This document shows positions 9,453 to 23,392 of a stretch of 64,000 nucleotides of DNA, one piece after another. The stretch lies in the sequence record NZ_CP087960.1; one strand, given 5' to 3'. Each line of letters starts with the position of its first letter. The first letter of the stretch is position 1. The notes under the pieces are model-generated. The model was not told the origin of the DNA. It searched no databases and saw only the letters and a list, made by a program, of their open reading frames with translations. The DNA comes from a plasmid. The translations under genes and the position numbers were made by a program.

Positions 9453-10055
9453 CTAAATGTTTTCTCTTTTTTTAATTCTATAAACTTGTTGTCTAGATAT
9501 GCCTACTTTTTTAGCAATAACTGAAATAGGTATATTTTTTTTGCGTAAATCACTAGTTACTGTCTGCCAGACCCATCTGTTACGTGGGTCTTTTGCATTT
9601 GCACCATATTTAATTTTTCTACCAGTGTATACGCCCGCAGCTTTAGCAATTTTGATTCCTTGTGCTTGACGTTCCTTGATTTTTTCACGTTCATTTTGTG
9701 CAACGAACCCCATAAGCTGAACCATCATATCCATCATAAATTGATCAACTAGTGGATTGCCTGTATTTGTTTGTGGTAAGTCGTCAACAATAAAAGAGAC
9801 TTTTATATCTCGTAAGTGTTGGATCAATTTCTTTATATCATTATAATCTCTACTTAATCGATCTAAACTTACTACTTGTAAGGTATCACCTTCACGTAAA
9901 TAATTCATCATTTTTTTGAAAGCGGGGCGGTTAAGACTTTTTCCGCTGTATTTTTCTGAAAAAATTTTATCTGCATGAACTTCTTTTGCTCGAGCAAGTT
10001 GTCGATCCAAGTTTTGTTCTTCAGAACTAACTCTTGCATAAAAAACTAACGCCAT
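9453..10055 (-). CDS. Serine recombinase / resolvase (multimer resolution)
   Basis: N-terminal catalytic region YARVSSEEQNLDRQ; GDTLQVVSLDRLSRD; C-terminal HTH (ISRQQVYRIKKR). Confidence 0.85.
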   Translation of the reverse strand: MALVFYARVSSEEQNLDRQLARAKEVHADKIFSEKYSGKSLNRPAFKKMMNYLREGDTLQVVSLDRLSRDYNDIKKLIQHLRDIKVSFIVDDLPQTNTGNPLVDQFMMDMMVQLMGFVAQNEREKIKERQAQGIKIAKAAGVYTGRKIKYGANAKDPRNRWVWQTVTSDLRKKNIPISVIAKKVGISRQQVYRIKKRENI

Positions 10056-10084
10056 TTACGATTTTCCTTCTTATATTTTGTTAC

Positions 10085-10170
10085 AGTATTATGTTACACT
10101 TTTTTTCGTTGCTTTTCAGCAATAAGAAAGTGTAACAATAGGGGACACCCTAATGTTACACTAAACAGAT
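10085..10170. promoter_or_regulatory. Candidate res site: three copies of the 9-bp motif TGTTACACT (10092-10100; inverted at 10129-10137; 10154-10162) upstream of the resolvase
   Basis: Motif copies read directly; location 5' of the resolvase start is typical for res subsites. Confidence 0.4.
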
Positions 10171-10256: not shown

Positions 10257-10523
10257 ATGGATAATCCATATACTGGAAAAATATCCCAAAAGGGTCAGTT
10301 AGTAATTCCTGCAGCAATTAGAAAGGCTTTAGGTTTAGATAAAGGGGCTAAAGTTTCTTTTGAAGTAAAAAATAATGAAGTAATTGTAAAAAAGCTTCCG
10401 ACAGCTTTAGATTGGTCAAATTTAATTGCTGAATTACCTGAAGAAAAGGTTGAGATTGATAAAAACGGTCAGTATGATCCAAAAAAATCTCCTAATTTTC
10501 ATGACTGGATGGTTAATGGCTAA
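10257..10523 (+). CDS. AbrB/MazE-family antitoxin (SpoVT/AbrB swapped-hairpin domain)
   Basis: ISQKGQLVIPAAIRKALGLDKGAKV motif; stop overlaps the start of the downstream toxin (TAATG). Confidence 0.65.
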   Translation: MDNPYTGKISQKGQLVIPAAIRKALGLDKGAKVSFEVKNNEVIVKKLPTALDWSNLIAELPEEKVEIDKNGQYDPKKSPNFHDWMVNG

Positions 10524-10870
10524 TGAAACCGATGGAGATTTACATCGCAGACGTACCATTTGATGATAAAGATGATTCAAAAATACGTCCGGCTTTAGTG
10601 GTTAAAGTCAGTGATGAACGTGTAAATATATTTAAAGTAACAACAAAATTTAAAAATAAATCTAAAAAGATAAGGCGACTATATTATCCAATAAAAAAAT
10701 GGAAAGAATCAGGCTTAAAAGAATTATCCTATGTAGATACACATAGAACATATAATATATCACAGAAAGCGGTATTTAGTAGAAAGCCAATTGGTAAGTT
10801 AGATAATGGAGATATTGTTGGGTTATTTGAGTTTATCCAAAAAATAAAAAAGGAAAGCAAAAATGTATGA
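10523..10870 (+). CDS. MazF/PemK-like toxin (divergent member)
   Basis: N-terminus MEIYIADVPFDDKDDSKIRPALVVKVSD parallels MazF GDLIWVDFDPTKGSEQAGHRPAVVLS; TTKFKNKS...YYPI resembles MazF TTQSKGYPFEV; translationally coupled to the AbrB-like gene. Confidence 0.5.
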   Translation: MKPMEIYIADVPFDDKDDSKIRPALVVKVSDERVNIFKVTTKFKNKSKKIRRLYYPIKKWKESGLKELSYVDTHRTYNISQKAVFSRKPIGKLDNGDIVGLFEFIQKIKKESKNV

Positions 10871-11093
10871 TCAAGACCAAATAGTAGAAAACTATAGTAG
10901 ATTACGTAATGATTTCAAATTTCAAAAATCAATGTCAATTTTGATATTAACAGAAGCAGTACTTAACAACAATCAAAACTCTACTATTATTGAGCACGCT
11001 ATAAATACAATTCGAAAAGATTTTACGAAAGACTGGGTTAAACAAATGATTAAATTAATTTGTACTGATCCGGAATTAAGAATTATGTTCTAA
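10863..11093 (+). CDS. hypothetical small protein (76 aa)
   Basis: ORF overlapping the toxin stop by 8 nt; no motif recognised. Confidence 0.25.
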   Translation: MYDQDQIVENYSRLRNDFKFQKSMSILILTEAVLNNNQNSTIIEHAINTIRKDFTKDWVKQMIKLICTDPELRIMF

Positions 11094-11123
11094 ATTAATG
11101 GATTTGATTGAGGAAAAATAACT

Positions 11124-11345
11124 ATGAATAGGTCTACAATAGAAAAATCAATAAAGGAATTTGAAACATATTTTGAAGGAAGACCAAACAAGGTTGAAGT
11201 AGTAACTCGAATCGTATCAAACAAAGCGGCTGATTTTTGGAACAATACATCTAGACTAACAGTTCGAGAAAGAGAAGAAGAAATAAAAGATTTAGGATGT
11301 AATCCACTAGAACAGAAACCAATTGGAAAAGAAAGACTTAAGTAG
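11124..11345 (+). CDS. hypothetical small protein (73 aa)
   Basis: ORF preceded by ggaaaaataactATG; no motif recognised. Confidence 0.25.
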   Translation: MNRSTIEKSIKEFETYFEGRPNKVEVVTRIVSNKAADFWNNTSRLTVREREEEIKDLGCNPLEQKPIGKERLK

Positions 11346-11366
11346 TTATGAAAAATCCAAATAGCT

Positions 11367-11410
11367 AAAAATCGGTATTAGATTGATTAGGTTCAATAAT
11401 ACCGATTTTT
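11367..11410 (+). terminator. Rho-independent terminator (aaaatcggtatt ... aataccgatttt + T-run)
   Basis: 12-bp perfect stem followed by TTTTT. Confidence 0.5.
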
Positions 11411-11423
11411 GTGTGATTAAAGT

Positions 11424-11466
11424 CAATTATTGTACCACATAGTGCATATATATGGTACAATAATTG
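11424..11466. promoter_or_regulatory. 14-bp perfect inverted repeat CAATTATTGTACCA / TGGTACAATAATTG with 15-nt spacer; candidate autoregulatory operator of the RelB/DinJ module
   Basis: Read directly; sits 37 bp upstream of the RelB-like start. Confidence 0.4.
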
Positions 11467-11502
11467 ATGAAGATATAGATAAAGAAAAATAGGTGAATTC
11501 AA

Positions 11503-11802
11503 ATGATAGAAAGAAATATATCAAGATTCCAAGTACGAATCGATTCAGATTTGGTAAGTGGTGTAAAAGCTAAGCTAGCTCAAGCAGGTATTGATCAGCA
11601 AAACATATTAAATGCTTTTTTAACTTATGTTGCATATACTCAAAAAATTCCTTTTCAAAAATTAACCAAAAGAGAAGAATTACAAGCAAAAGCAGCAGCT
11701 ATCTTTGCTGCTGATAATGAGGATAAAGAAATTCCTGAAATTACTAATGAAAAAGACTTAGAAGATTGGTATGCAGAAAATGGTGATAATGATGAAGAAT
11801 GA
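11503..11802 (+). CDS. RelB/DinJ-family antitoxin (ribbon-helix-helix) with an acidic C-terminal extension
   Basis: ISRFQVRIDSDLVSGVKAKLAQAGIDQQNILNAFLTYVAYTQKIPF closely follows the DinJ pattern (RIDEDLK...MGLT...PF). Confidence 0.7.
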   Translation: MIERNISRFQVRIDSDLVSGVKAKLAQAGIDQQNILNAFLTYVAYTQKIPFQKLTKREELQAKAAAIFAADNEDKEIPEITNEKDLEDWYAENGDNDEE

Positions 11803-12208
11803 TCATTTTCAACCGTTTGATGTAGCTTCTATTTTTTGGATTTATGAGGAAGATATAGATAGTAACAAGGATAAAAAGAGGGGGAAGCTTAGACCTGGTT
11901 TAATTACAGGTTTCACTCCAGATGGTAAGGCAGTTTTTCAGAAGATTACCACAAAGTTTAAGAATAAAAGCCCATTCATTAAGCTTAGATACTATAAAAT
12001 TCAAGATTTAAAATCAGCAGGTTTAAATAGAGAATCATATATTGATATTAAAGATAGTAGAATTATTAAATTAGATAATATTGTTAAAAGAGGGAGTCTA
12101 TCAGAAAAGGATATTGATGATTTAATTGATTTTAAACAAACATATCCAGAAAGGCTTAGAAAATTTCAATTAAAACAAATTAATAGGAATAGAGGACTAG
12201 AAAGATGA
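11771..12208 (+). CDS. MazF/PemK-like toxin paralog. The real start is probably at 11789/11792 (MMKNDHF), giving the usual short antitoxin overlap
   Basis: Shares KLRPGLITG...KITTKFKNKS...YYKIQDLKSAGL...SYID with the 10523..10870 protein; ATGA stop/start overlap with the next small ORF. Confidence 0.45.
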   Translation: MQKMVIMMKNDHFQPFDVASIFWIYEEDIDSNKDKKRGKLRPGLITGFTPDGKAVFQKITTKFKNKSPFIKLRYYKIQDLKSAGLNRESYIDIKDSRIIKLDNIVKRGSLSEKDIDDLIDFKQTYPERLRKFQLKQINRNRGLER

Positions 12209-12375
12209 ATAAGGATTTAGTAAGAGTTCAAATGAACTCACAGATTATTGAGGCGGCAGAAAATGTTTTTAAGAAGAATAATTTAACTGCAAGTGAAGCT
12301 GTAACATTATTGTATGAGAATATTTTATTAAAACCAGAATTTCCTTTTCCTTTGCAGGTAGAAAAACATGAGTAA
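12205..12375 (+). CDS. 56-aa DinJ/RelB-like small protein MNKDLVRVQMNSQIIEAAENVFKKNNLTASEAVTLLYENILLKPEFPFPLQVEKHE (not in ORF track)
   Basis: Hand translation; the VRVQMNSQIIEAAENVF...LTASEAVTLL pattern resembles the DinJ N-terminus; start overlaps the toxin stop (ATGA). Confidence 0.45.
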   Translation: MNKDLVRVQMNSQIIEAAENVFKKNNLTASEAVTLLYENILLKPEFPFPLQVEKHE

Positions 12376-12535
12376 ACAAAGATTAGTTTTGATGGTTGAT
12401 GATGACTTGAAAAAAGAGTTTAAAAGGACTGTGGAAGATATGGGACTGACTTCTACGGCTGCTGTTACTCTTTTTATGCAACAAGTAGTAAATCAAAAAA
12501 GAATACCATTTAATCCAACTTATACTAAAAAGTAG
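12368..12535 (+). CDS. 55-aa DinJ/RelB-like small protein MSKQRLVLMVDDDLKKEFKRTVEDMGLTSTAAVTLFMQQVVNQKRIPFNPTYTKK (not in ORF track)
   Basis: Hand translation; VDDDLKKEF / MGLTSTAAVTLF...KRIPF matches DinJ RIDEDLKNQA / MGLTISDLVRI...KALPF; ATG overlaps the previous ORF by 8 nt. Confidence 0.5.
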   Translation: MSKQRLVLMVDDDLKKEFKRTVEDMGLTSTAAVTLFMQQVVNQKRIPFNPTYTKK

Positions 12536-12712
12536 TACGATTTAAAAAACACAGATTTAAAGTTTTTAGATTGAAGAAAAAGTAAATAAAGATGAATAAA
12601 ACTAAAGAGCTTACTATTTTTAAAAAGTAGAAAATATAGATATTTTTTAGAGATATGCGTAGAAAAGAGAGGAGCGATTTTTATCAAAACAATTAATTAT
12701 TACACGAGATTA

Positions 12713-13243
12713 ATGACCATGACCTACCAAGACGCAGTTAATTTTTTACAAAAAAAGTGTAAATGTCATTATGATTACTTTAATGAACAATCTTTTAATA
12801 ATTTAAAACATAGAAATTTTAGAACAAAAAATGGTAATTACCGATTGCCTAACCATAATCCAAAGCGGTCGAAATACAAGTCAGATGGATTAATATTACA
12901 TCATGTTTATGAGAATAAGTTTTCAAATTTATCGTACTTGTCATCTATAAGACAACATAGTGACTTTTTATATCAAAGAAAGAAGAATTTGGTCTATTGT
13001 AACTTGTTAGAACATTTGATTTTGCATGCCTTGATTTTTAAAGAAACAAAAAATGAAAAACTTGGTATAGGTGGTTATAAATCTTTGCCAACTCAGATTG
13101 AAAACTTATATTTAGTTGAGGAAAGCCAAAACGAACAAAATGAACAAGCTAAAATTAATCATGAATTAAAATCAGCAATAGGGTTAACTTGGTCTGAAGT
13201 GAATGAAATATTAGTTGCTAGTAAGGCATTATTAAAAAAATAA
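12713..13243 (+). CDS. hypothetical protein (176 aa); stop codon lies within the IS30 target-site duplication
   Basis: Open frame; Cys/His-containing N-terminus (CKCHYDY ... LHHVYENK) not confidently assignable. Confidence 0.35.
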   Translation: MTMTYQDAVNFLQKKCKCHYDYFNEQSFNNLKHRNFRTKNGNYRLPNHNPKRSKYKSDGLILHHVYENKFSNLSYLSSIRQHSDFLYQRKKNLVYCNLLEHLILHALIFKETKNEKLGIGGYKSLPTQIENLYLVEESQNEQNEQAKINHELKSAIGLTWSEVNEILVASKALLKK

Positions 13244-13247
13244 TTAT

Positions 13248-14435
13248 CGTTGATTGTAAAATCAAATTGAACACTTTAGAAAAATAAAAAGTCCATTCGG
13301 ACCTGTTTGATAGAATGTTAATAACCACAAAAACTTTCTATTGGAGGTCAAAATGGACTCTTTACATTCTACCATGAACCAGCACGTTAAAGGAAAGCAT
13401 TTATCATTTGAAGAGCGAGTTATTATTCAATTGCGTTTGAAAGATGGCTGCTCTTTGCGTGCAATTGCTCGTGAACTCAACTGTTCTCCTTCTACTATCA
13501 GTTATGAGATTAAACGTGGCACTGTAAAACTGTATCATGGTAAAGTCAAAAGATACAAGGCTACTCAAGGACATGATGTATATCAAGCTCATCGTAAAAA
13601 TTGTGGGCGCAAATCAGACTTTCTCAAAAAAACTCAATTTATTCACTATGTCCACAAACATTTCTTTAAAGACGGTTGGTCGCTTGATGTTTGCAGTAAT
13701 CGTGCCACTGCTGCTGGCGAATTCTCTAGCAGCGATGTTGTCTGCACCAAAACTCTTTATAATTACGTTGATAAGGGCTTATTAGGCATTTATAATTACG
13801 ACTTGCCTGAGAAGCTTAAACGCAATACCAAGCTTCATCGTGTTCGCAAAAACAAGAAAAAGCTTGGCAGAAGTATTGAAGAACGTCCAAAAGAAATTAG
13901 TGAACGTAATGAATTCGGTCATTGGGAATGCGATTTGGTTCTTGGACATAAGACTAAAGATGATGAAGTGCTGTTAACCTTATCTGAGCGCATGAGTCGT
14001 GAATTCTTAATTATTCGTATTCCCGACAAGACTTCTATCAGTGTCATGCAAGCCTTTAAAGAACTCCAAAGACAATACAGTGAACACTGGAATGATATTT
14101 TTAAAACTATTACCACTGATAATGGTTCAGAATTTGCGGATCTGTCCAACCTAGAAGAAGCATCCAATACACTGGTTTACTATGCCCATCCTTACACTTC
14201 TTGTGATAAGGGAACAGTTGAAAGACACAATGGTCTTATTCGCAGATTCATTCCTAAAGGAGAAGCAATAGCTAACTATTCTTTACAAAATATCATTGAT
14301 ATTGAAACCTGGTGCAACTCATTGCCAAGAAAGATCTTAGCTTATCATACACCAGATGAAATCTTTGAAAGAGAATTAGATCGAATCTATCAAGCAGCTT
14401 AACCAAAAGTGTTCAATTTATTATTGCAATTTACG
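13248..14435 (+). mobile_element. IS30-family insertion sequence, copy 1 (1188 bp), flanked by the 13-bp direct repeat AAAAAATAATTAT (13235-13247 and 14436-14448)
   Basis: Boundaries set by comparing the two identical copies. Imperfect terminal inverted repeats CGTTGATTGTAAAATCAAATTGAACAC / GTGTTCAATTTATTATTGCAATTTACG. Flanking direct repeats read directly. Confidence 0.8.
13341..14402 (+). CDS. IS30-family transposase (353 aa)
   Basis: N-terminal HTH and DDE region typical of IS30 transposases; identical copy at 20767..21828 (minus). Confidence 0.85.
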   Translation: MEVKMDSLHSTMNQHVKGKHLSFEERVIIQLRLKDGCSLRAIARELNCSPSTISYEIKRGTVKLYHGKVKRYKATQGHDVYQAHRKNCGRKSDFLKKTQFIHYVHKHFFKDGWSLDVCSNRATAAGEFSSSDVVCTKTLYNYVDKGLLGIYNYDLPEKLKRNTKLHRVRKNKKKLGRSIEERPKEISERNEFGHWECDLVLGHKTKDDEVLLTLSERMSREFLIIRIPDKTSISVMQAFKELQRQYSEHWNDIFKTITTDNGSEFADLSNLEEASNTLVYYAHPYTSCDKGTVERHNGLIRRFIPKGEAIANYSLQNIIDIETWCNSLPRKILAYHTPDEIFERELDRIYQAA

Positions 14436-14507
14436 AAAAAATAATTATATGTATGTTTAGATATTTATTAATTAAAATTAGACTCGAAGAAAATATTCAA
14501 AGAAAAA

Positions 14508-14937: not shown

Positions 14938-17238
14938 ATGAACGATAGATTATTTTGGAACTTTAACGATAAAATATCTGGAAATTATATGTGGTATAGT
15001 ACTTCAATTCTGCCGTTATCATTGAATTATGAAGATTTAAGAAAAGTAAGTAGAAATAAAGATCATTATTTTCTTCAATTTAATTTTTCAAAAAATAAAA
15101 TTCAAGAACATCAAGGGTTTAAAATACATATTTCAGCAACTATTAAGAATTATGAACAGATACTAGACATAATTTTTAATTTTTGCAAAAAAAATAATAT
15201 TACATTTAAATATATTGCTAATAAATATGAACTAGAAAAGAATTTTTCTGGACTATGTTCGTTTTGGAGTACAGGAAAGTTTATAACTATATATCCTCAG
15301 CCTGGAGATTTTAGGTCAATAGTTTCTAAACTTTATTCGCTCCACGAATTAAAAGAACTAAAGGGTATATATATATTAACTGATCGGCGTTATAAGGACT
15401 CTAATGTAATATTTTATAGATATGGAATTCTGAATAATGATTCAAATAAATGTATTTTTGATCCAAATGGAAAATATCTATATACAGACTATTCAATTGC
15501 TAAATATCAGTTACCATATTTTGTAAATGAACCATTTCCCATAAATAAGGATGAGGTAAGTCCTCACAGTAAGTACTTATTTTTGAAGTATACACCTATT
15601 CGGAACATATATAAGAAGTCCTCGGGGTCAGTATATTGTGTAAAAAGTAATAATGGTGATACATATATTCTAAAAAATGCACGTCCAAATTTTTCAGATG
15701 GTAATAGTACTCAAATTGAGAGACTAAAGAATGAAAAAATAAAATTAAAAAAATTAATTGATTTTAATTTCTTTCCGCATGTGGTTGAAAGTTTTATAGA
15801 AAATGATAATTATTTTTTAGTCGAAACATTAGTTACAGGTGTAACTGTTAATAAATTTCGTGCAGAAGATTTATCAGGATATGCAACAGATACCCAAATT
15901 TTACCTAAGAGCTTTAAAGTTTTAGAAATAATAAAAGATATGTGTAGAAAGTTACTTGCATTACATAAAAAAGATATCTTCTTAGGAGATATATCCGCAA
16001 ACAATATATTAGTTAATGAAAAAACATCAACAATTAATTTTGTAGATGTTGAACAGACTGAATTTAATGTTTCTAAGAAAAAGATATCTTGTTTTTTTAG
16101 AACACCGGGTTTTTTTGATAAAAAAACGGCTACTCTTCCTCCTTTGCAGCAAGATATACAGCAATTAGGATATGTAATTATGTCTCTCTTTTGTAGAGCT
16201 AATTCTTTCTTAGAAATTGATTCATCGGGTAAAACTACAATTTCATTTTTTAAGGAATTTGCAAAGATATATCATATACCTAAAGCTTTAGTTGAGATAC
16301 CATTAACTCTGATTAGAAATCCTAGAGAATCTTCTTTAAAAAGTGTTTTAAATGTAAAACTAATTTTAGATTTTGAAAGTGATAAAGAGAAAATTTGTAC
16401 CTTTCCTGAAGATCTTTTGCTTAAGTTAAGACATACTTATTTTTGTGGTAAGTTAGATAATATTTGCTCACAAGATATTGAACAAATATCCTTTTTTAAT
16501 AAAGAAGACGTTTTGTATACAGATAAAATTCTCAATTTAAATATGAGATATTTAGAAAACAAAAATACTAATTCAATATCGCAAGAAAGCAAAAACGCAA
16601 TAAATTTAGCAAAAAAAGAATTAGTAAATTGTTTTTCCAATGCAATTAAATCAGAATTGGAGTCACGTGACTTAAGTATATTTTTAAGTGTTTTAAATTG
16701 TTACTTTTTTGCTAATAACTTTGATATAAATACACAGAAAGAAAAGGAAGATATTGAAACAATAATAGATTACTTGCTAACAAATTACAAAGTCGTTAAT
16801 AATGGTCTTGTTGGATTTCGAAAATCGAAAAAATCAGTTTATATTATGCCATATATATCGAGTGGAACAGCAGGTATTTTGATAGTTTTATTGTTTTATA
16901 AATATATAAGTGACACCGATAAATATGATGAAATAATAAAAACAATAGCATATGGATTTAAATTAACGACGTTACCTAAATCTGGTGGCTTTGCTAATGG
17001 TCTATCTGGAATTGTTTACGCACTTCTTTTATATAGAAAAGTAACAGATGATAGTAAGATTGATAATTTGACTAAGAAAATGATCAATGAATTACATATG
17101 TATACTATATATTTATCAAATAATTTATATGTGATTTCAGATGATTTTAAACATGTAAGCCTAGATTTTGTGGATGGTAATTTAGGCATGATTAAAGTTC
17201 TGGAAAAGGCAAAAAAAGTTCTCAATTGGGAAAGCTGA
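14938..17238 (+). CDS. Class III-type lanthipeptide synthetase (LanKC-like): N-terminal lyase, central Ser/Thr-kinase, C-terminal LanC-like cyclase lacking Zn ligands
   Basis: Kinase-like catalytic loop HKKDIFLGDISANNILVN and DFG-like FVDVEQ. C-terminal GGFANGLSGIVYALLL corresponds to the LanC GxAHGxxG motif but has no His. No CHG or WCxG Zn-ligand motifs (DFVDGNLG instead), as expected for class III rather than class IV. Confidence 0.65.
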   Translation: MNDRLFWNFNDKISGNYMWYSTSILPLSLNYEDLRKVSRNKDHYFLQFNFSKNKIQEHQGFKIHISATIKNYEQILDIIFNFCKKNNITFKYIANKYELEKNFSGLCSFWSTGKFITIYPQPGDFRSIVSKLYSLHELKELKGIYILTDRRYKDSNVIFYRYGILNNDSNKCIFDPNGKYLYTDYSIAKYQLPYFVNEPFPINKDEVSPHSKYLFLKYTPIRNIYKKSSGSVYCVKSNNGDTYILKNARPNFSDGNSTQIERLKNEKIKLKKLIDFNFFPHVVESFIENDNYFLVETLVTGVTVNKFRAEDLSGYATDTQILPKSFKVLEIIKDMCRKLLALHKKDIFLGDISANNILVNEKTSTINFVDVEQTEFNVSKKKISCFFRTPGFFDKKTATLPPLQQDIQQLGYVIMSLFCRANSFLEIDSSGKTTISFFKEFAKIYHIPKALVEIPLTLIRNPRESSLKSVLNVKLILDFESDKEKICTFPEDLLLKLRHTYFCGKLDNICSQDIEQISFFNKEDVLYTDKILNLNMRYLENKNTNSISQESKNAINLAKKELVNCFSNAIKSELESRDLSIFLSVLNCYFFANNFDINTQKEKEDIETIIDYLLTNYKVVNNGLVGFRKSKKSVYIMPYISSGTAGILIVLLFYKYISDTDKYDEIIKTIAYGFKLTTLPKSGGFANGLSGIVYALLLYRKVTDDSKIDNLTKKMINELHMYTIYLSNNLYVISDDFKHVSLDFVDGNLGMIKVLEKAKKVLNWES

Positions 17239-17251
17239 GGTGAATTAGCTA

Positions 17252-18835
17252 ATGATAAAATCATTTTTTAAGTCTAATTATAAGTATACTTTTATTTTTA
17301 TTGTTTCGACTGTTATTGGTGGGGCCTTAGTTGCTTATGGGAGTTACGGTTGGACGCCTGCTACTGACTCTTTAAAAAATCTTGATACTAAAAAATTTGT
17401 TTTGTGGATTATTTTGATAGTAGTGACATCAGCTGGTGGTAGAGTCATGCAATTCTTAGCTGGTTATCTCTTTACAAAACAAGAGCAAGAATATTTTCAT
17501 AATCTAAGGAAAAAGCTTATAAATCATTATTATGAAAGTAAGCCTGTAGATAAGCTATCTAATATGCAAAATAGATTAACAAATGATCTAAAAATTATTA
17601 GCGATCAAGCTTTAGATCCAGTATCTAATGTAGTCCTTTGTGTAGTTGATTTAGTATTTTCTGCATATGTAGTTTTAACTTTTAATTTTTGGCTGCTTTG
17701 TTTAATTTTAGTTTTAGCAGTAATTATGCTTTATTTGCCAGATTTGTTGTCTAAGCAATTAGAAAAAGCAACAAATGAAGTTTCCTCTAACTATAGCAAG
17801 TATATTGATACCATTGAAAAATGGTTAGCAGGGCTAGCAGTTTTACAAAGATATCGGTCAAAGACAAAATTATCTGCTGCCTTAGCTAGAAGTTCTTCAG
17901 GATTAGAGAAAGCCACAGTAATTCGAGATAAAAAATCTGTTGAATTACGTAATCTCACTTATACTGCTAATATGGTTGCTCAAGGAGCTGTTCTTCTGGC
18001 AACTGGATTATTAGTATTGAATCATCAGTTAACTATTGGTACCCTTATGAGTATTGCGAATTTTTCTAGCTTAATTTTTTCTCAGCTTGTTAATGTTACT
18101 TCACAGATTGGTTCAATTAAGTCAACTAGATCGTTAGCAGATAGTGTAATGAAAGAAATTAAAGAGTTACCAAATTCAGAGAAAAAAGAAGACTCTCTAA
18201 CAAACTTTGACACTCTTTCTACTCATGGTTTAGTTCTTCAGTATCCTAATGGTGAAAAAATCCAGTATCCTGATATTCAGATTAAGGCGGGAGAAAAAGT
18301 ACTTTTAAGTGGTGATAGTGGAACCGGAAAGTCAACGCTGTTTAAAATGATTTTAAATGAAATAAAGCCTACTCAAGGTAAAATTGTTTTTAAAGATAAA
18401 CTAGGCAAGATTCTCAATCCTGATTATTCGCAAATTGGATATATTCCGCAAGATCCAGTTGTTTTTCCAGGAACAATTGAAGATAATATTACGATGTTTA
18501 ATAGTAGACTGAATAAAAAAGCAGCGAATTGGGCACAAAAGGTTCAGTTAGCAACAGACTTTGAAAAGTTCCCTGATGGTATTAAAACTGTCGTAGATCT
18601 AGATAAAAAGAATCTTTCTGGAGGACAAAGACAAAAAATAATTTTGGCTCGAACTGAAGTATATAACAGCAAGATTATCTTAATTGATGAAGGTACTTCG
18701 GCAATAGATTCGGTTGCAACAGAGCAAATTCTAAAAAATATTCTTAAAGAACCTGCAACGGTAATCTTTATTGCGCATAATCTAACTGATGAAATGGTTC
18801 AATTATTTGATCGTAGGATTAACTTAAGTAAGTAA
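17252..18835 (+). CDS. ABC transporter, fused permease-ATPase exporter (no N-terminal C39 peptidase domain)
   Basis: Six N-terminal TM helices; Walker A GDSGTGKST; signature LSGGQRQKIILAR; Walker B ILIDEGTSAIDS. Confidence 0.85.
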   Translation: MIKSFFKSNYKYTFIFIVSTVIGGALVAYGSYGWTPATDSLKNLDTKKFVLWIILIVVTSAGGRVMQFLAGYLFTKQEQEYFHNLRKKLINHYYESKPVDKLSNMQNRLTNDLKIISDQALDPVSNVVLCVVDLVFSAYVVLTFNFWLLCLILVLAVIMLYLPDLLSKQLEKATNEVSSNYSKYIDTIEKWLAGLAVLQRYRSKTKLSAALARSSSGLEKATVIRDKKSVELRNLTYTANMVAQGAVLLATGLLVLNHQLTIGTLMSIANFSSLIFSQLVNVTSQIGSIKSTRSLADSVMKEIKELPNSEKKEDSLTNFDTLSTHGLVLQYPNGEKIQYPDIQIKAGEKVLLSGDSGTGKSTLFKMILNEIKPTQGKIVFKDKLGKILNPDYSQIGYIPQDPVVFPGTIEDNITMFNSRLNKKAANWAQKVQLATDFEKFPDGIKTVVDLDKKNLSGGQRQKIILARTEVYNSKIILIDEGTSAIDSVATEQILKNILKEPATVIFIAHNLTDEMVQLFDRRINLSK

Positions 18836-19650: not shown

Positions 19651-20760
19651 CTAAGCCCATTCTTTCTTTTCTACATAGAAACCCCAGAATGTTTTCCCTT
19701 TATATTCTTGTTCCTTTAAGCCACCGGTGGCATACCAAGAACCTTTTTTAGCTTTAAGTTTTATACGAATTTTTTGGCCAGCTAATAATTTGTCTTTTTC
19801 ACTTTCAGTAAATTTATGAGTAGACCAGCTATTTTTAAATCTAATTTCTTTACCATTTGGTGTATAAATACCTGTAAAATGATTATTGTCGATAAATTTT
19901 ATGGTGTTCTTATCATAGGCAAAACCCCAGAACGTTTTATCTTTATATTTTTGTTGAGAAAGTTTTCCTTCGACACTTAATGGAGTACCTTTTTTAGAAG
20001 TACATTCTATTGTAATTGTTTCTCCATTTAGCAAAGTTTGGAGTTCAGAATCAGTAAATTTATGAGAGGACCAACTATTTTTAAATGTAACTTTTTGACC
20101 AGTTGGCTTAAATATTCCTGTAGTTCGTGTACCGTCATCAGGGAATTCAATTTTATTTACGTCAAAGCTAAAACCCCAGAATTTTTTATTTTGATACGTT
20201 TTCTCAGATAATTTACCAGGAACAATAATAGCAGTTCCCTTTTTAGATTTACAGTTAACCTTAATAGTTTGACCAGCAAGAAGCTGTTGAATTTCTTCAT
20301 CAGTAAATCTATGACCACTAAATATTCTACTGAAGTTGATCTCTTCTCCAGTTGGACTATAGATTCCATTAACTCTTTCAGCTGGTTTTGGTAAATCAAG
20401 TGCAAGTTTTTGCAATGTTGAATTATTTTTAATTACATTAATATTTTGACGAATTATTGGCATATCATGCTTAACAATAGTCGTCATCAAAGTTGGAATT
20501 TTTTCAAATTCAATCTTGAATAGTTTAACTTCTTTCATATATTCAAGTAGTTGTTTAGTAACATGTGGGCTAGAAATTTGACAGCCTTGTGTTAGAAGAG
20601 CACTAGCTAAGCCATTAAAGGTAAGCTCATATACATTATTTTTGACTTTAAGTAGAGCAGTTGGATCTTTAGGATTGGAAATATCTGTAATAGTAGTTAG
20701 TTGTGTAGCACCAGTTCCGATATTATTTTTCTTCGTAAATTGCAATAATAAATTGAACAC
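19651..20760 (-). CDS. Protein with three ~75-aa DUF3945-like repeats (GIYxPxGxEIxF...FTDxE...AGQxIx...KKGT...FWGF). C-terminal portion of an ancestral topoisomerase fusion; present start codon and first 9 codons are IS30-derived
   Basis: Three internal repeats read directly in the translation; the ORF start lies inside IS copy 2 (IS boundary at 20733/20734). Confidence 0.55.
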   Translation of the reverse strand: MFNLLLQFTKKNNIGTGATQLTTITDISNPKDPTALLKVKNNVYELTFNGLASALLTQGCQISSPHVTKQLLEYMKEVKLFKIEFEKIPTLMTTIVKHDMPIIRQNINVIKNNSTLQKLALDLPKPAERVNGIYSPTGEEINFSRIFSGHRFTDEEIQQLLAGQTIKVNCKSKKGTAIIVPGKLSEKTYQNKKFWGFSFDVNKIEFPDDGTRTTGIFKPTGQKVTFKNSWSSHKFTDSELQTLLNGETITIECTSKKGTPLSVEGKLSQQKYKDKTFWGFAYDKNTIKFIDNNHFTGIYTPNGKEIRFKNSWSTHKFTESEKDKLLAGQKIRIKLKAKKGSWYATGGLKEQEYKGKTFWGFYVEKKEWA

Positions 20761-21921
20761 TTTTGGTTAAGCTGCTTGATAGATTCGATCTAATTCTCTT
20801 TCAAAGATTTCATCTGGTGTATGATAAGCTAAGATCTTTCTTGGCAATGAGTTGCACCAGGTTTCAATATCAATGATATTTTGTAAAGAATAGTTAGCTA
20901 TTGCTTCTCCTTTAGGAATGAATCTGCGAATAAGACCATTGTGTCTTTCAACTGTTCCCTTATCACAAGAAGTGTAAGGATGGGCATAGTAAACCAGTGT
21001 ATTGGATGCTTCTTCTAGGTTGGACAGATCCGCAAATTCTGAACCATTATCAGTGGTAATAGTTTTAAAAATATCATTCCAGTGTTCACTGTATTGTCTT
21101 TGGAGTTCTTTAAAGGCTTGCATGACACTGATAGAAGTCTTGTCGGGAATACGAATAATTAAGAATTCACGACTCATGCGCTCAGATAAGGTTAACAGCA
21201 CTTCATCATCTTTAGTCTTATGTCCAAGAACCAAATCGCATTCCCAATGACCGAATTCATTACGTTCACTAATTTCTTTTGGACGTTCTTCAATACTTCT
21301 GCCAAGCTTTTTCTTGTTTTTGCGAACACGATGAAGCTTGGTATTGCGTTTAAGCTTCTCAGGCAAGTCGTAATTATAAATGCCTAATAAGCCCTTATCA
21401 ACGTAATTATAAAGAGTTTTGGTGCAGACAACATCGCTGCTAGAGAATTCGCCAGCAGCAGTGGCACGATTACTGCAAACATCAAGCGACCAACCGTCTT
21501 TAAAGAAATGTTTGTGGACATAGTGAATAAATTGAGTTTTTTTGAGAAAGTCTGATTTGCGCCCACAATTTTTACGATGAGCTTGATATACATCATGTCC
21601 TTGAGTAGCCTTGTATCTTTTGACTTTACCATGATACAGTTTTACAGTGCCACGTTTAATCTCATAACTGATAGTAGAAGGAGAACAGTTGAGTTCACGA
21701 GCAATTGCACGCAAAGAGCAGCCATCTTTCAAACGCAATTGAATAATAACTCGCTCTTCAAATGATAAATGCTTTCCTTTAACGTGCTGGTTCATGGTAG
21801 AATGTAAAGAGTCCATTTTGACCTCCAATAGAAAGTTTTTGTGGTTATTAACATTCTATCAAACAGGTCCGAATGGACTTTTTATTTTTCTAAAGTGTTC
21901 AATTTGATTTTACAATCAACG
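20734..21921 (-). mobile_element. IS30-family insertion sequence, copy 2 (1188 bp, identical to copy 1, inverted), flanked by the 13-bp direct repeat TATTATTTTTCTT (20721-20733 and 21922-21934)
   Basis: Same termini as copy 1; flanking direct repeats read directly; inserted within a reconstructable ORF. Confidence 0.8.
20767..21828 (-). CDS. IS30-family transposase (identical to 13341..14402)
   Basis: Identical 353-aa translation. Confidence 0.85.
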   Translation of the reverse strand: MEVKMDSLHSTMNQHVKGKHLSFEERVIIQLRLKDGCSLRAIARELNCSPSTISYEIKRGTVKLYHGKVKRYKATQGHDVYQAHRKNCGRKSDFLKKTQFIHYVHKHFFKDGWSLDVCSNRATAAGEFSSSDVVCTKTLYNYVDKGLLGIYNYDLPEKLKRNTKLHRVRKNKKKLGRSIEERPKEISERNEFGHWECDLVLGHKTKDDEVLLTLSERMSREFLIIRIPDKTSISVMQAFKELQRQYSEHWNDIFKTITTDNGSEFADLSNLEEASNTLVYYAHPYTSCDKGTVERHNGLIRRFIPKGEAIANYSLQNIIDIETWCNSLPRKILAYHTPDEIFERELDRIYQAA

Positions 21922-23392
21922 TATTATTTTTCTTTAAAAACTTTCGTAAAAAGCTAAGAGTTGGTTTAGCCGGAGCTGGATTACTCCCCTCATAAATGTA
22001 TGGAGTAACAGTAGAAAGGAATCCTTGATGATTAGACTTATTAGAATCAGAATCTAGATCTTGTTCGTTGAAGACCAATTTATAATTTAACTTCTTAGGG
22101 AGATTAGAAACAGACTTAAAGTCTGGATTATTGGCTAAATGAGCTTTTTGTTGTTCGTAGACGTAATCTTCACATAAGATTGCTAAGTAGGCTTTAGCCA
22201 AAGTTATATATATTTCCTTACCGCATTTTCCAAACTTTTTTTCTAGTTCATCTAAGCTAGTGGGTACATTAATTCCTGGACGATTGGCACCGTGATCAGC
22301 CTTTGCAGTAATGTATTTTTTACGTGCTGTTCTATGAGTTAATAGAGAATGATCTACTCCAACAACATTGGCAATGCTGTCAACTAAAGGGAGTAACTCA
22401 TCAAAGTCTTTTTGATCTACCTTGGTATCTTCTGTACGAGGATAAGAGACGTATTCCGCTTCATACATCTTTTGATAAGTATCTTTGACTTGGCTAGTAG
22501 TAAACCCTTTTTTACTTAATAAGTCAGCTAATCCCATTAAGTTAATCAAGGAAGGCGGTTCAGTAGTTTTGGTTACATTAGAATCAATAACTACGTTATC
22601 CGGCTTATAGTTTAGTAAATCGTTATTAGCATCAGATTTATGCTCAAATCTAAATGTGTCATCATCTTGAAAGTTTCTTTTAAAAACATTCCCGTTGGCA
22701 TCTTTATATCGAACTTCAAAGTAAGGTTTCTTTACATAGTTTTTTATCTTTTGCCATTGTTGATAAACAATATTAGCTAATGCTGATTTAAATCTACCTA
22801 ATCTAAGTACTTTAGGATTGTATCCAGCTTGCTTAGCTGCAAGAGTTGCAATTCTACTAAGTTGCATTGAACCATAGTCAAGACGTTGTCGTGAAGTTGC
22901 TTCTAAGTATTCACCACTATGAAACTTATCACTAACATCTTTGCGATTAATGATAGCTTCTTTGATTTTGGACTCAGTTGAAAAATAGGCTCTATAAACG
23001 GTACTTCTCCACCCAATAGCTTCGATGATTTCCCAAGCGAGCAAATCACCTTCACCTGAGGGATCGCAGTCAGTAGCAATTACAATTGCATCTTTATCTT
23101 GAGCAGCCTGTTTAATTTGTTGCACATTTTTCTTCGCATCAGTATCTAAATATGTTTTTTTCCATGCAAAATCGTTTAAATTCCAAGGAAAAACATCATA
23201 AGAATTCCATTCTGAATATCTAGCTATCTTATCAGCTGATACTTGATCTTGAGGATCTTTTAACTTTAACAAATGACCGTGGCTGTGTACTAGCTCATAA
23301 GTATCAGTACCAATATTACCTGAAATTCCACCAAGTACTTGTGCAAACTTTTGATATGCACTAGATTTTTCTGCTAAGATTAATAGTTTCAA
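21899..23392 (-). CDS. Type IA DNA topoisomerase (TopB/Topo III-like) Toprim + catalytic domain; C-terminus truncated by IS30 insertion (last 7 codons are IS-derived)
   Basis: Toprim DxD motif ATDCDPSGEGDLLAWEI (compare E. coli TopB GDPDREGQLL); catalytic Tyr motif YVSYPRTED (compare LISYPRTD); RIATLAAKQAGY resembles the topoisomerase TR motif. Confidence 0.7.
   Translation of the reverse strand: MKLLILAEKSSAYQKFAQVLGGISGNIGTDTYELVHSHGHLLKLKDPQDQVSADKIARYSEWNSYDVFPWNLNDFAWKKTYLDTDAKKNVQQIKQAAQDKDAIVIATDCDPSGEGDLLAWEIIEAIGWRSTVYRAYFSTESKIKEAIINRKDVSDKFHSGEYLEATSRQRLDYGSMQLSRIATLAAKQAGYNPKVLRLGRFKSALANIVYQQWQKIKNYVKKPYFEVRYKDANGNVFKRNFQDDDTFRFEHKSDANNDLLNYKPDNVVIDSNVTKTTEPPSLINLMGLADLLSKKGFTTSQVKDTYQKMYEAEYVSYPRTEDTKVDQKDFDELLPLVDSIANVVGVDHSLLTHRTARKKYITAKADHGANRPGINVPTSLDELEKKFGKCGKEIYITLAKAYLAILCEDYVYEQQKAHLANNPDFKSVSNLPKKLNYKLVFNEQDLDSDSNKSNHQGFLSTVTPYIYEGSNPAPAKPTLSFLRKFLKKNNTLIVKSN

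What the first reader, a model, noticed from the sequence alone, without database searches (positions are those of the whole stretch)
10257..12535. Dense addiction locus: two divergent MazF-like toxins with different antitoxin classes plus two tandem orphan DinJ-like small ORFs
An AbrB/MazE-type antitoxin pairs with a MazF-like toxin at 10257-10870. A RelB/DinJ-type antitoxin pairs with a paralogous toxin at 11503-12208; the two toxins share KITTKFKNKS...SYID. Right after the second toxin come two overlapping 55-56-aa DinJ-like genes found by hand (12205-12375 and 12368-12535). These are joined by ATGA and ATG overlaps and have no downstream RelE/YafQ-type partner. Paralogous toxins neutralised by different antitoxin folds, plus spare antitoxins, suggest antitoxin swapping or anti-addiction functions. 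A 14-bp perfect inverted repeat upstream of the RelB gene looks like its operator.
Basis: partly seen in the sequence, partly recalled or inferred. Interest (0 to 1): 0.55.

Follow-up and report, generated by a model that had tools for sequence, protein, structure and literature searches.

The report
Toxin-antitoxin cassette with two extra regulators
This Lactobacillus plasmid region holds two ordinary toxin-antitoxin pairs, but the second forms a rare, conserved four-gene cassette whose last two small genes encode only a DNA-binding domain and so are more likely regulators than spare antidotes.

Summary
A near-identical L. gasseri plasmid (pHL20_1) already annotates most of them.

**Module 1 (10257-10870)** is a canonical AbrB/MazE + PemK/MazF pair.

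**Module 2 (11503-12535)** is one operon:
- a full-length RelB/DinJ antitoxin (E);
- a divergent MazF-fold toxin (F: no Pfam hit, but a confident AF2 model whose best PDB matches are all MazF);
- two translationally coupled 55-56-aa proteins (G, H).

G and H are real genes. The F-G-H order recurs in three lineages at 52-69% amino-acid identity, with dN/dS about 0.2-0.3. [quoted passage not shown] They lack the C-terminal toxin-binding tail that E has, and no YafQ/RelE remnant lies downstream. They are therefore not spare antitoxins. They are most likely DNA-binding regulators, which makes this a four-component variant of a type II TA system.

MazF toxins paired with different antitoxin folds are well documented, and the same holds across this toxin clade.

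The palindrome overlaps an extended -10 element. Its core, TACCA-N15-TGGTA, is conserved across the lineages.

The toxin gene carries two independent inactivating deletions in relatives, while E, G and H stay intact.

Overall: modest interest, a new variant of a known kind.

The parts
10257..10523 (+). A: AbrB/MazE-type antitoxin of module 1 (88 aa)
   Evidence: PF04014 3.6e-10 and TIGR01439 2.6e-11. The same 88-aa partner precedes B-family toxins in Limosilactobacillus loci.
10523..10870 (+). B: PemK/MazF-family toxin of module 1 (115 aa)
   Evidence: PF02452 at 28.6 bits, above the 23.1 cut-off. It has 24 homologous clusters, those named by a source being Lactobacillaceae proteins called PemK/MazF toxins. 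Arg and Thr are invariant in the family alignment.
10863..11093 (+). C: 76-aa ORF that overlaps the end of B; function unknown. It may be an accessory of module 1.
   Evidence: No family hit. It follows B in every L. gasseri / L. jensenii copy but is absent from Limosilactobacillus B-family loci. Only two plasmid records carry it.
11367..11410 (+). Terminator-like hairpin with a 14-nt perfect stem followed by a T-run. It ends the upstream transcription unit.
   Evidence: Inverted repeat I4; the T-run is read. The consensus scan did not call it because the loop is 16 nt.
11423..11467 (.). Operator-like palindrome with 19-nt arms and a 15-nt perfect core. It overlaps the extended -10 element TGGTACAAT (11453-11461). 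The conserved core TACCA-N15-TGGTA lies at 11433-11457.
   Evidence: 0 of 100 shuffles gave a perfect arm longer than 12 nt. The core motif occurs once in 64 kb against 0.02 expected. It occurs once at the equivalent promoter in 10 of the 11 cassette-bearing loci that include that promoter (L015 has TGGCA, one mismatch). It is absent from the other fetched loci, none of which holds the promoter (sequences).
11503..11802 (+). E: full-length RelB/DinJ-type antitoxin (99 aa). It has an N-terminal RHH domain and an acidic C-terminal tail carrying the motif DLEDWYAENGD.
   Evidence: PF04221 2.7e-6, above cut-off. The C-terminal Trp motif is shared with the RelB partners of related toxins in L. plantarum and C. 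perfringens. The L002 orthologue is 54% identical, with dN/dS about 0.31.
11789..12208 (+). F: divergent MazF-fold toxin (139 aa from the PGAP start; the ORF opens at 11771). It has a long basic C-terminal helix.
   Evidence: It is 37% identical to B. The AF2 model has pLDDT 89 and pTM 0.80. All top Foldseek PDB hits are MazF/EndoA, E 3e-4, TM 0.55/0.64. Arg35-Pro36 align with the Arg25-Pro26 of B. subtilis MazF (low probability). Only 2 cluster representatives score below 1e-30 among 1.84 billion.
12205..12375 (+). G: 56-aa acidic RHH-only protein, translationally coupled to F through an ATGA overlap.
   Evidence: RelB-type profiles match from residue 1 to about 55, all below cut-off. The AF2 monomer shows an extended N-terminus plus two helices at pLDDT 60. 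Orthologues in L002 and L009 are 62-66% identical. pI is 5.1-5.3 in all three lineages.
12368..12535 (+). H: 55-aa basic RHH-only protein, coupled to G through the 8-nt overlap ATGAGTAA.
   Evidence: PF04221 5e-11 and TIGR02384 54 bits, above cut-off, covering profile positions 1-53 only. It matches the 53-residue E. coli RelB chain 2K29 (chain residues 8-52) at 6.8e-5. It is 40-47% identical to the N-terminal half of 83-88-aa DinJ proteins from DinJ-YafQ pairs. Orthologues are 67-69% identical, with dN/dS about 0.22. pI is 9.8-10.4.

Best explanation
The region holds two independent type II toxin-antitoxin modules on a mobile Lactobacillus gasseri-group element.

**Module 1 (A-B)** is a standard AbrB/MazE-type antitoxin with a PemK/MazF-type endoribonuclease toxin.

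**Module 2** is a discrete four-gene operon, E-F-G-H. It is transcribed from an extended -10 promoter embedded in a palindromic operator.
- E is a classical two-domain RelB/DinJ antitoxin. Its RHH dimer binds the operator, and its acidic Trp-containing tail neutralises F.
- F is a divergent MazF-fold RNase. Its catalytic-type Arg (Arg35) is retained, as is a Thr (Thr54) at the position of the catalytic Thr.
- G (acidic) and H (basic) are stand-alone RHH domains made in step with the toxin through start/stop overlaps.

I infer that G and H are DNA-binding regulators, not toxin neutralisers. They may act as a G-H heterodimer or as two homodimers. On this view they add an antitoxin-independent layer of transcriptional control to the cassette, in the way omega serves epsilon-zeta or PaaR serves paaA-parE.

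**Shown:** gene content, folds and domains, co-conservation, purifying selection, the absence of a toxin-binding tail, and the position and conservation of the operator core.

**Inferred:** toxicity of F, E-F binding, DNA binding by G and H, and their target.
For: - **Domains and fold:**
- **Paralogy of B and F:**
- **Conserved gene order:** E-F-G-H recurs in L002/L003 and F-G-H recurs in L009, with the same overlaps and 52-69% amino-acid identity. dN/dS is 0.2-0.3 for E, F and H (dS not computable for G) and dS is saturated.
- **Discrete cassette:** homology to pHL20_1 breaks at 11433 and 12690, and the gene after H differs in each lineage.
- **G and H end at the RHH domain:** they stop at RelB/DinJ profile position ~53 and lack the C-terminal Trp motif of E. 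Removing the RelB C-terminus abolishes RelE suppression (PMC12301738).
- **DNA-facing residues:** the polar residues of the RHH beta-strand that would face DNA are conserved in G (R-Q-N/D). In H they are R, N/V, M (read).
- **Charge:** G is acidic and H is basic in all three lineages.
- **G and H are specific to this cassette:** ordinary RelB-MazF-like pairs elsewhere have no extra RHH ORFs.
- **Operator:**
- **Recurrent toxin loss:** a 180-bp deletion occurs in L004-L008 and a 35-bp frameshift deletion in L016/L029/L032/L034, the last three on large contigs matching L. jensenii-named proteins. E, G and H stay intact in both cases. This fits a harmful toxin.
Against: - E keeps its own RHH domain, so a separate regulator is not obviously needed.
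- Known dedicated TA regulators (omega, PaaR) lie upstream of the pair, not downstream of the toxin.
- No second conserved DNA site for G or H was found.
- The long palindrome arms are specific to the window. Only a 5+5-bp core is conserved, and half of that core is part of the -10 element.
- G scores below the curated cut-offs, and its monomer model has low confidence.
- Only three lineages are known, and one of them is a 682-bp fragment.
- No expression or binding data exist.
Confidence: 0.55

Rival explanations
1. G and H are spare or orphan antitoxins. They neutralise F, B, or toxins of competing elements by direct binding (anti-addiction).
For: They belong to the RelB/DinJ family by profile match. 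Orphan antitoxins have been proposed as anti-addiction factors (PMC7354431).
Against: - Both stop at the end of the RHH domain and lack any C-terminal toxin-binding segment.
- In RelB that segment is required for toxin suppression (PMC12301738).
- They are linked to F in three lineages and are not scattered as orphans.
- No YafQ/RelE-type partner or remnant exists in the window.
Confidence: 0.07
2. G and H are non-functional relics. They would be the N-terminal stumps of two former antitoxin genes whose toxins were deleted, carried along passively.
For: H is closest to the N-terminal half of DinJ proteins from intact DinJ-YafQ pairs. TA loci decay often, and F itself is deleted in many relatives.
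Against: - Lengths (55-59 aa), start/stop overlaps and order are the same in three lineages that differ at about 36% of nucleotides. dN/dS is 0.2-0.3.
- No trace of DinJ C-terminal or YafQ coding sequence lies downstream in any lineage.
- E, G and H are only 10-25% identical to one another, so they are not recent duplicates.
Confidence: 0.1
3. G and/or H act through protein-protein contacts inside the module, not as independent repressors. They might form mixed RHH dimers with E, which would change antitoxin valency and operator affinity. Or they might bind the long basic C-terminal helix of F, as a PasC-like helper of neutralisation.
For: - RHH domains are obligate dimers, and three different RHH proteins are made from one mRNA.
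- G is acidic, while F and H are strongly basic.
- F has a C-terminal helix that extends beyond the end of B-family toxins.
- pasABC gives a precedent for a downstream helper gene (PMC4803016).
Against: No direct evidence exists. E, G and H share only 10-25% identity, which argues against promiscuous heterodimers. Related toxins with C-terminal extensions (L. plantarum, C. perfringens) have no G/H.
Confidence: 0.15
4. G and H regulate targets outside the cassette. Candidates are operators of resident or incoming DinJ-YafQ or RelB-MazF modules (silencing rival addiction systems) and other plasmid functions such as transfer or partition.
For: - H resembles DinJ DNA-binding domains from plasmid DinJ-YafQ pairs.
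- The omega RHH protein controls several plasmid promoters (PMC4803016).
- The element is mobile between plasmids and chromosomes.
Against: - The gene neighbourhood beyond the cassette is not conserved.
- The operator core motif occurs only once in the 64-kb window.
- The residues of H that would read DNA (R, N/V, M) differ from those of the DinJ relatives (R-N-R).
Confidence: 0.1

Closest known systems
Two-gene RelB/DinJ + PemK/MazF-like modules on Lactobacillales and Clostridium plasmids (e.g. E. hirae pHDC14-2.69K WP_002326659/WP_002326660; L. plantarum WP_002819873 with its neighbour; C. perfringens WP_211935953/WP_211935948)
   Same: An RHH antitoxin with an acidic Trp-containing tail overlaps a downstream toxin of the same divergent MazF clade, at 35-43% identity to F.
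   Different: Those modules stop after the toxin. No extra RHH genes follow. F and its two orthologues form a very small subclade.
Bacillus subtilis / Staphylococcus aureus MazE-MazF (EndoAI-EndoA)
   Same: They are the best structural matches to the F model (1NE8, 4MDX, 4ME7, 4MZM). From my own knowledge, MazE of B. subtilis is also an RHH antitoxin. Arg-Pro aligns with the Arg25-Pro26 of EndoA.
   Different: No sequence-level match is detectable: a profile search of the PDB returns no MazF. F lacks the G-x-E-x-x-G motif before the Arg and has a roughly 20-residue longer C-terminal helix.
Tripartite type II TA systems: omega-epsilon-zeta (pSM19035), paaR-paaA-parE, pasABC
   Same: An extra gene in the TA operon supplies regulation (omega is an RHH protein; PaaR) or assists neutralisation (PasC, which lies downstream of the toxin) (PMC4803016).
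   Different: Here there are two extra genes, both RHH-only and both downstream of the toxin. The antitoxin keeps its own DNA-binding domain. No sequence relationship to omega, PaaR or PasC was found.
E. coli RelB N-terminal domain / DinJ of DinJ-YafQ
   Same: H aligns over its whole length to the 53-residue E. coli RelB chain of 2K29 and to residues 5-50 of RelB in 4FXE. Its nearest full-length relatives are DinJ antitoxins of YafQ toxins. From my own knowledge, 2K29 is the isolated RelB N-terminal DNA-binding domain.
   Different: H (and G) is a natural stand-alone domain. It has no toxin-wrapping C-terminus and no RelE/YafQ neighbour.

Membership tests
PemK/MazF toxin (PF02452; CcdB/MazF fold) | Sequence match to the family profile above the curated cut-off | tested here: inconclusive
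   B meets it: 28.6 bits against 23.1. F has no Pfam or NCBIfam hit, but it is 37% identical to B. Relatives found by HMMER partly hit PF02452.
PemK/MazF toxin (PF02452; CcdB/MazF fold) | MazF-type SH3-like barrel with a C-terminal helix | tested here: met
   The AF2 model of F has pLDDT 89 and pTM 0.80. All 50 top Foldseek PDB hits are MazF/EndoA/MoxT, probability 1.00, TM 0.55/0.64.
PemK/MazF toxin (PF02452; CcdB/MazF fold) | Catalytic Arg and Thr (Arg25/Thr48 of B. subtilis MazF, from my own knowledge) | tested here: inconclusive
   Arg35, Pro36 and Thr54 are invariant in the 22-sequence alignment. hhalign places Arg35-Pro36 on Arg25-Pro26, but at only 25% probability. The Thr54 equivalence rests on its position at the end of strand 3.
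PemK/MazF toxin (PF02452; CcdB/MazF fold) | Growth inhibition / sequence-specific RNA cleavage, relieved by the upstream antitoxin | not testable with these tools
   The only evidence is indirect: two independent inactivating deletions of F in near-identical relatives.
RelB/DinJ antitoxin (PF04221, TIGR02384) | N-terminal RHH domain matching the family profile | tested here: met
   E scores 27.6 bits and H 42.8 bits against a cut-off of 22.4. H scores 54 on TIGR02384 against 45.65. G matches three RelB-type profiles, all below cut-off.
RelB/DinJ antitoxin (PF04221, TIGR02384) | C-terminal extension that binds and neutralises the toxin | tested here: not met
   E meets it, with a tail of about 45 residues carrying a conserved Trp motif. 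G and H do not: their matches end at profile position 51-54 of 82-85, and the proteins end 2-5 residues later. G and H should therefore not be filed as antitoxins.
RelB/DinJ antitoxin (PF04221, TIGR02384) | A cognate toxin gene immediately downstream | tested here: not met
   E meets it (F). G is followed by H. H is followed by unrelated genes that differ in each lineage. There is no YafQ/RelE similarity.
AbrB/MazE/SpoVT antitoxin (PF04014) | Swapped-hairpin N-domain profile match, with a toxin downstream | tested here: met
   A: PF04014 at 40.1 bits against 24.7 and TIGR01439 at 43 against 28.3. B overlaps its stop codon.
Tripartite TA with a dedicated regulator (omega-epsilon-zeta / paaR-paaA-parE type) | A separate DNA-binding regulator gene is co-transcribed with the TA pair, and the antitoxin lacks regulatory activity | tested here: inconclusive
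   Extra RHH genes lie in the same operon. However, E retains an RHH domain, and G/H lie downstream of the toxin, unlike omega or PaaR (PMC4803016). Regulatory activity cannot be tested here.

The most novel reading that the evidence does not exclude
G and H form a heterodimeric, stand-alone RHH repressor whose synthesis is tied by translational coupling to that of the toxin. The cassette would then measure toxin production through a stable DNA-binding reporter, not through the labile antitoxin. That would be a four-component TA architecture not described before. A bolder version has G/H also silencing the operators of rival DinJ/RelB-type addiction modules, giving anti-addiction by transcriptional silencing instead of toxin neutralisation.
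Probability: 0.15. Interest if true: 0.6.

Novelty: new variant of a known kind. Interest (0 to 1): 0.35.

Why it matters
Type II TA modules are nearly always two genes, and only a handful of three-component exceptions are known. Each exception taught something about how toxin release is controlled.

This cassette is a conserved antitoxin-toxin-RHH-RHH unit. It moves between L. gasseri/paragasseri plasmids and large contigs (up to 1.85 Mb) that carry L. jensenii-named proteins, presumably chromosomal. If G and H really regulate it, it would be a natural case where DNA binding and toxin neutralisation are partly split between separate proteins.

It also cautions against annotation by domain. 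Short proteins labelled 'RelB/DinJ family antitoxin' that contain only the RHH domain should not be counted as orphan antitoxins or anti-addiction factors.

Apart from that, the locus is ordinary plasmid-maintenance equipment.

Tried and rejected
- **Sequence searches of solved structures** with B, F, G and the toxin-family profile gave no MazF or RelB hit for B, F or G. Only the fold search linked F to MazF.
- **Collection scans for more cassettes.** Two genome-contig scans (F and H patterns) and three viral-contig scans found nothing. The metagenome scan returned only copies with a G protein identical to the window's. The family therefore stays at three lineages.
- **PADLOC** gave no defence-system match.
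- **PHROGs** gave only RHH families of unknown function.
- **Rfam** gave nothing above gathering scores, so there is no sign of an RNA antitoxin.
- **AF2 on the G monomer** gave pLDDT 60. That is too low for a fold search, so none was run.
- **L. intestinalis hit to E** is an unrelated 136-aa protein, not a cassette.
- **A decayed DinJ-YafQ downstream of H** was considered and rejected.
- **The 14-nt perfect repeat at 11367-11410 as an operator** was rejected. It is followed by a T-run and sits right after the upstream ORF, so it is terminator-like.
- **Alignment of the window and L002 promoters** found no conserved long palindrome, only the TACCA-N15-TGGTA core.


Full report
**Source and observation.** The window matches the Lactobacillus gasseri plasmid pHL20_1 (NZ_CP072179.1) at 97.8% identity across the locus. 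PGAP annotates that plasmid with an AbrB/MazE protein, a PemK/MazF toxin, a hypothetical protein, a RelB/DinJ antitoxin, two hypothetical proteins and a second RelB/DinJ antitoxin.

Domain searches gave:
- A (10257-10523): AbrB/MazE.
- B (10523-10870): PemK/MazF, above the Pfam cut-off.
- E (11503-11802): RelB/DinJ, above the Pfam cut-off.
- H (12368-12535): RelB/DinJ, clearly above cut-off.
- G (12205-12375): sub-threshold hits to three RelB-type profiles.
- F (11771/11789-12208): no hit.

B and F are 37% identical (E 1e-13) and share the K[IV]TTKFKNKS and SY[IV]D motifs. The palindrome at 11423-11467 has 19-nt arms with one mismatch. Its 15-nt perfect core exceeded every one of 100 shuffles, whose maximum was 12 nt.

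**Toxin F.** I aligned F with its one distant orthologue and 20 B-family proteins. AlphaFold2 on that alignment gave a confident model: pLDDT 89, pTM 0.80, a small beta-barrel followed by a long C-terminal helix. Foldseek against the PDB returned only MazF/EndoA/MoxT structures among the top 50 hits. The best were 1NE8, 4MDX and S. aureus and M. tuberculosis MazFs, at E 3e-4, probability 1.00 and TM 0.55/0.64.

Sequence methods do not reach solved MazFs. A profile-sequence comparison (hhalign) places Arg35-Pro36 of F on Arg25-Pro26 of B. subtilis EndoA, with low probability. Arg35 and Thr54 are invariant in the family alignment.

Toxicity is not shown, but there is indirect support. Among near-identical relatives, F carries two independent disabling lesions:
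- A 180-bp deletion between AGAAGATT repeats. It removes the antitoxin's C-terminal motif and the first ~52 residues of the toxin (L004-L008).
- A 35-bp frameshift deletion found in L016, L029, L032 and L034 (the last three on contigs of 0.64-1.85 Mb). The truncated product matches proteins named from L. jensenii.

E, G and H remain intact in both cases.

**Antitoxin classes.** An exhaustive HMMER search of 1.84 billion cluster representatives found only two representatives below 1e-30 and 253 below 1e-3. F thus belongs to a small, divergent MazF clade.

tblastn against plasmids found 419 records, mostly from Lactobacillaceae, Enterococcus and Pediococcus. The partners in this clade are:
- RelB/DinJ in L. 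plantarum, L. paracasei, C. perfringens, E. hirae, Vagococcus and L. salivarius.
- Phd/YefM in Acinetobacter.
- AbrB/MazE for the B family.

MazF toxins linked to antitoxins with different DNA-binding folds have been described before (PMC3879964). This part of the finding is correct but already known.

**G and H are genuine, conserved parts of a four-gene cassette.** The only distant orthologue of F (P0003, 52-55% identical) lies on a metagenomic contig (L002). There it has the same order and the same overlaps: RelB-type antitoxin, toxin, a 56-aa ORF, then a 57-aa ORF, followed by a type I restriction-modification system. A third lineage (L009) shows the C-terminus of an F homologue followed by G and H homologues.

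Window versus L002:

| Protein | Amino-acid identity | dN/dS |
|---|---|---|
| E | 54% | about 0.31 |
| F | 55% | about 0.25 |
| G | 62% | dN 0.30, dS saturated |
| H | 69% | about 0.22 |

Homology between the window and pHL20_1 breaks at 11433 and at 12690. The gene after H differs in every lineage. E-F-G-H is therefore a discrete unit.

Ordinary RelB-MazF-like pairs elsewhere have no additional RHH ORF. The cassette is rare. G has three clusters at 90% identity among 5.8 billion. Four further collection scans found nothing new.

The exact G protein is nonetheless abundant. It occurs on 858 contigs, including contigs up to 1.85 Mb, and carries L. jensenii-derived names, some of them 'translation repressor RelB'. 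In these L. gasseri/jensenii relatives the whole A-B-C...E-F-G-H block travels together, sometimes in ICE-like surroundings.

**What G and H are not.**
- Both match only positions 1-53 of the 82-85-position RelB/DinJ profiles.
- H aligns end-to-end with the 53-residue E. coli RelB chain of 2K29, which I know to be the isolated RelB N-domain.
- H is 40-47% identical to the N-terminal halves of 83-88-aa DinJ antitoxins that sit next to YafQ toxins on Enterococcus and Aerococcus plasmids.
- E and the RelB partners of related toxins share an acidic C-terminal motif around a Trp: DLEDWYAENGD, EVADWLNDPDED, EEIEAWLNEE. G and H stop before any such segment.
- Truncating the RelB C-terminus abolishes RelE suppression (PMC12301738).
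- No DinJ C-terminal or YafQ-like coding remnant follows H in any lineage or occurs anywhere in the window.
- E, G and H are only 10-25% identical to one another, so they are not recent duplicates.

The 'spare antitoxin / anti-addiction by neutralisation' reading is therefore unlikely, and so is a 'decaying relic' reading.

**Most likely mechanism.**
- *Shown:* an extended -10 element (TGGTACAAT, 11453-11461) lies inside the right arm of the palindrome. A Shine-Dalgarno sequence (AGGTGA) precedes E. All four genes overlap or abut. The core TACCA-N15-TGGTA occurs once in the 64-kb window, against 0.02 expected. It occurs once, at the equivalent promoter, in 10 of the 11 cassette-bearing loci that include the promoter (L015 has TGGCA in the right half-site). 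It is absent from the other fetched loci, none of which holds that promoter.
- *Inferred:* E dimers repress this promoter, and E's tail blocks F. G and H are RHH-only proteins with polar residues on the face of the beta-strand that would contact DNA (R-Q-N/D in G; R, N/V, M in H). Their charges are consistently opposite (pI about 5.2 and about 10), and their genes overlap by 8 nt. I infer that they bind DNA, as a heterodimer or as two homodimers, and add a layer of transcriptional control that does not depend on the labile antitoxin. This is comparable in logic to omega in omega-epsilon-zeta or PaaR in paaR-paaA-parE (PMC4803016).
- *Against:* E keeps its own RHH domain. Known dedicated regulators lie upstream of the pair. 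No separate G/H site was found. Only a short operator core is conserved.

I put about 0.55 on this reading. The main rival (about 0.15) is action through protein contacts, either mixed dimers with E or a PasC-like helper role.

**Comparison and novelty.** Module 1 and the E-F pair are members of known, already annotated kinds. G and H fail a defining feature of RelB/DinJ antitoxins, the toxin-binding C-terminus, and have no cognate toxin. They should not be filed as antitoxins even though they share the N-domain. The antitoxin-toxin-RHH-RHH arrangement did not turn up in the TA papers found by my searches and is best called a new variant of a known kind. Interest is modest (0.35). A specialist would find the conserved pair of RHH-only genes curious but not startling, and the rest of the locus is routine.

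Noticed in passing
window 13236-14450 and 20720-21931: Two IS30-family copies, 99.6% identical over 1215 bp and in inverted orientation. They bracket a lanthipeptide-synthetase-like gene (14938-17238; RamC_N/LANC_like in the identical gene of L004/L030) and an ABC transporter (17252-18835). Related contigs (L004, L030) lack the first IS copy. This may be a composite-transposon-like arrangement.
   Followed up: partly
window 10080-10162: Four copies of TGTTACA(C) lie between the serine recombinase gene (9453-10055, minus strand) and antitoxin A: two direct, plus an inverted pair at 10129-10143/10148-10162. They could be a res site for the resolvase or the AbrB-type operator of module 1.
   Followed up: no
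window 10863-11093 (ORF C) and 11124-11345 (ORF D): C (76 aa, no family) overlaps the stop codon of toxin B. It accompanies A-B in all L. gasseri / L. jensenii copies but not in Limosilactobacillus A-B loci, so it may be a third gene of module 1. D (73 aa, no family) is present only in the window-type variant and is replaced by unrelated sequence in pHL20_1.
   Followed up: partly
window ~11759-11938 (absent in L004-L008); window 12011-12045 (absent in L016, L029, L032, L034): There are two independent natural deletions of toxin F. One is 180 bp, lies between AGAAGATT repeats and also removes the antitoxin's Trp motif. The other is a 35-bp frameshift on large contigs (0.64-1.85 Mb); its truncated product carries L. 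jensenii names. A 75-aa allele of E with an in-frame loss of the Trp motif also exists (P0213).
   Followed up: yes
window 12713-13243: The 176-aa ORF right after the cassette matches NCBIfam NF053682 'SAV1803-related protein' (1e-28). Its function is unknown. It is not conserved next to the cassette in pHL20_1, L002 or L009.
   Followed up: no
L032 (GCA_951857035.1, 1.73-Mb contig): The whole A-B-C/E-F(truncated)-G-H block sits in a chromosome-sized contig (1.73 Mb; species not given, L. jensenii-like by its F allele). It lies between a Fic/SocA_Panacea pair and an IS256-like (Transposase_mut) transposase, close to the rplJ/rplL ribosomal protein genes. The sequence is nearly identical to the plasmid copy, which implies recent exchange among these Lactobacillus species.
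   Followed up: partly
L002 1484-4698: In the divergent lineage the four-gene cassette lies directly upstream of type I restriction-modification genes (N6_Mtase, Methylase_S). This may place it in a defence-island context.
   Followed up: no
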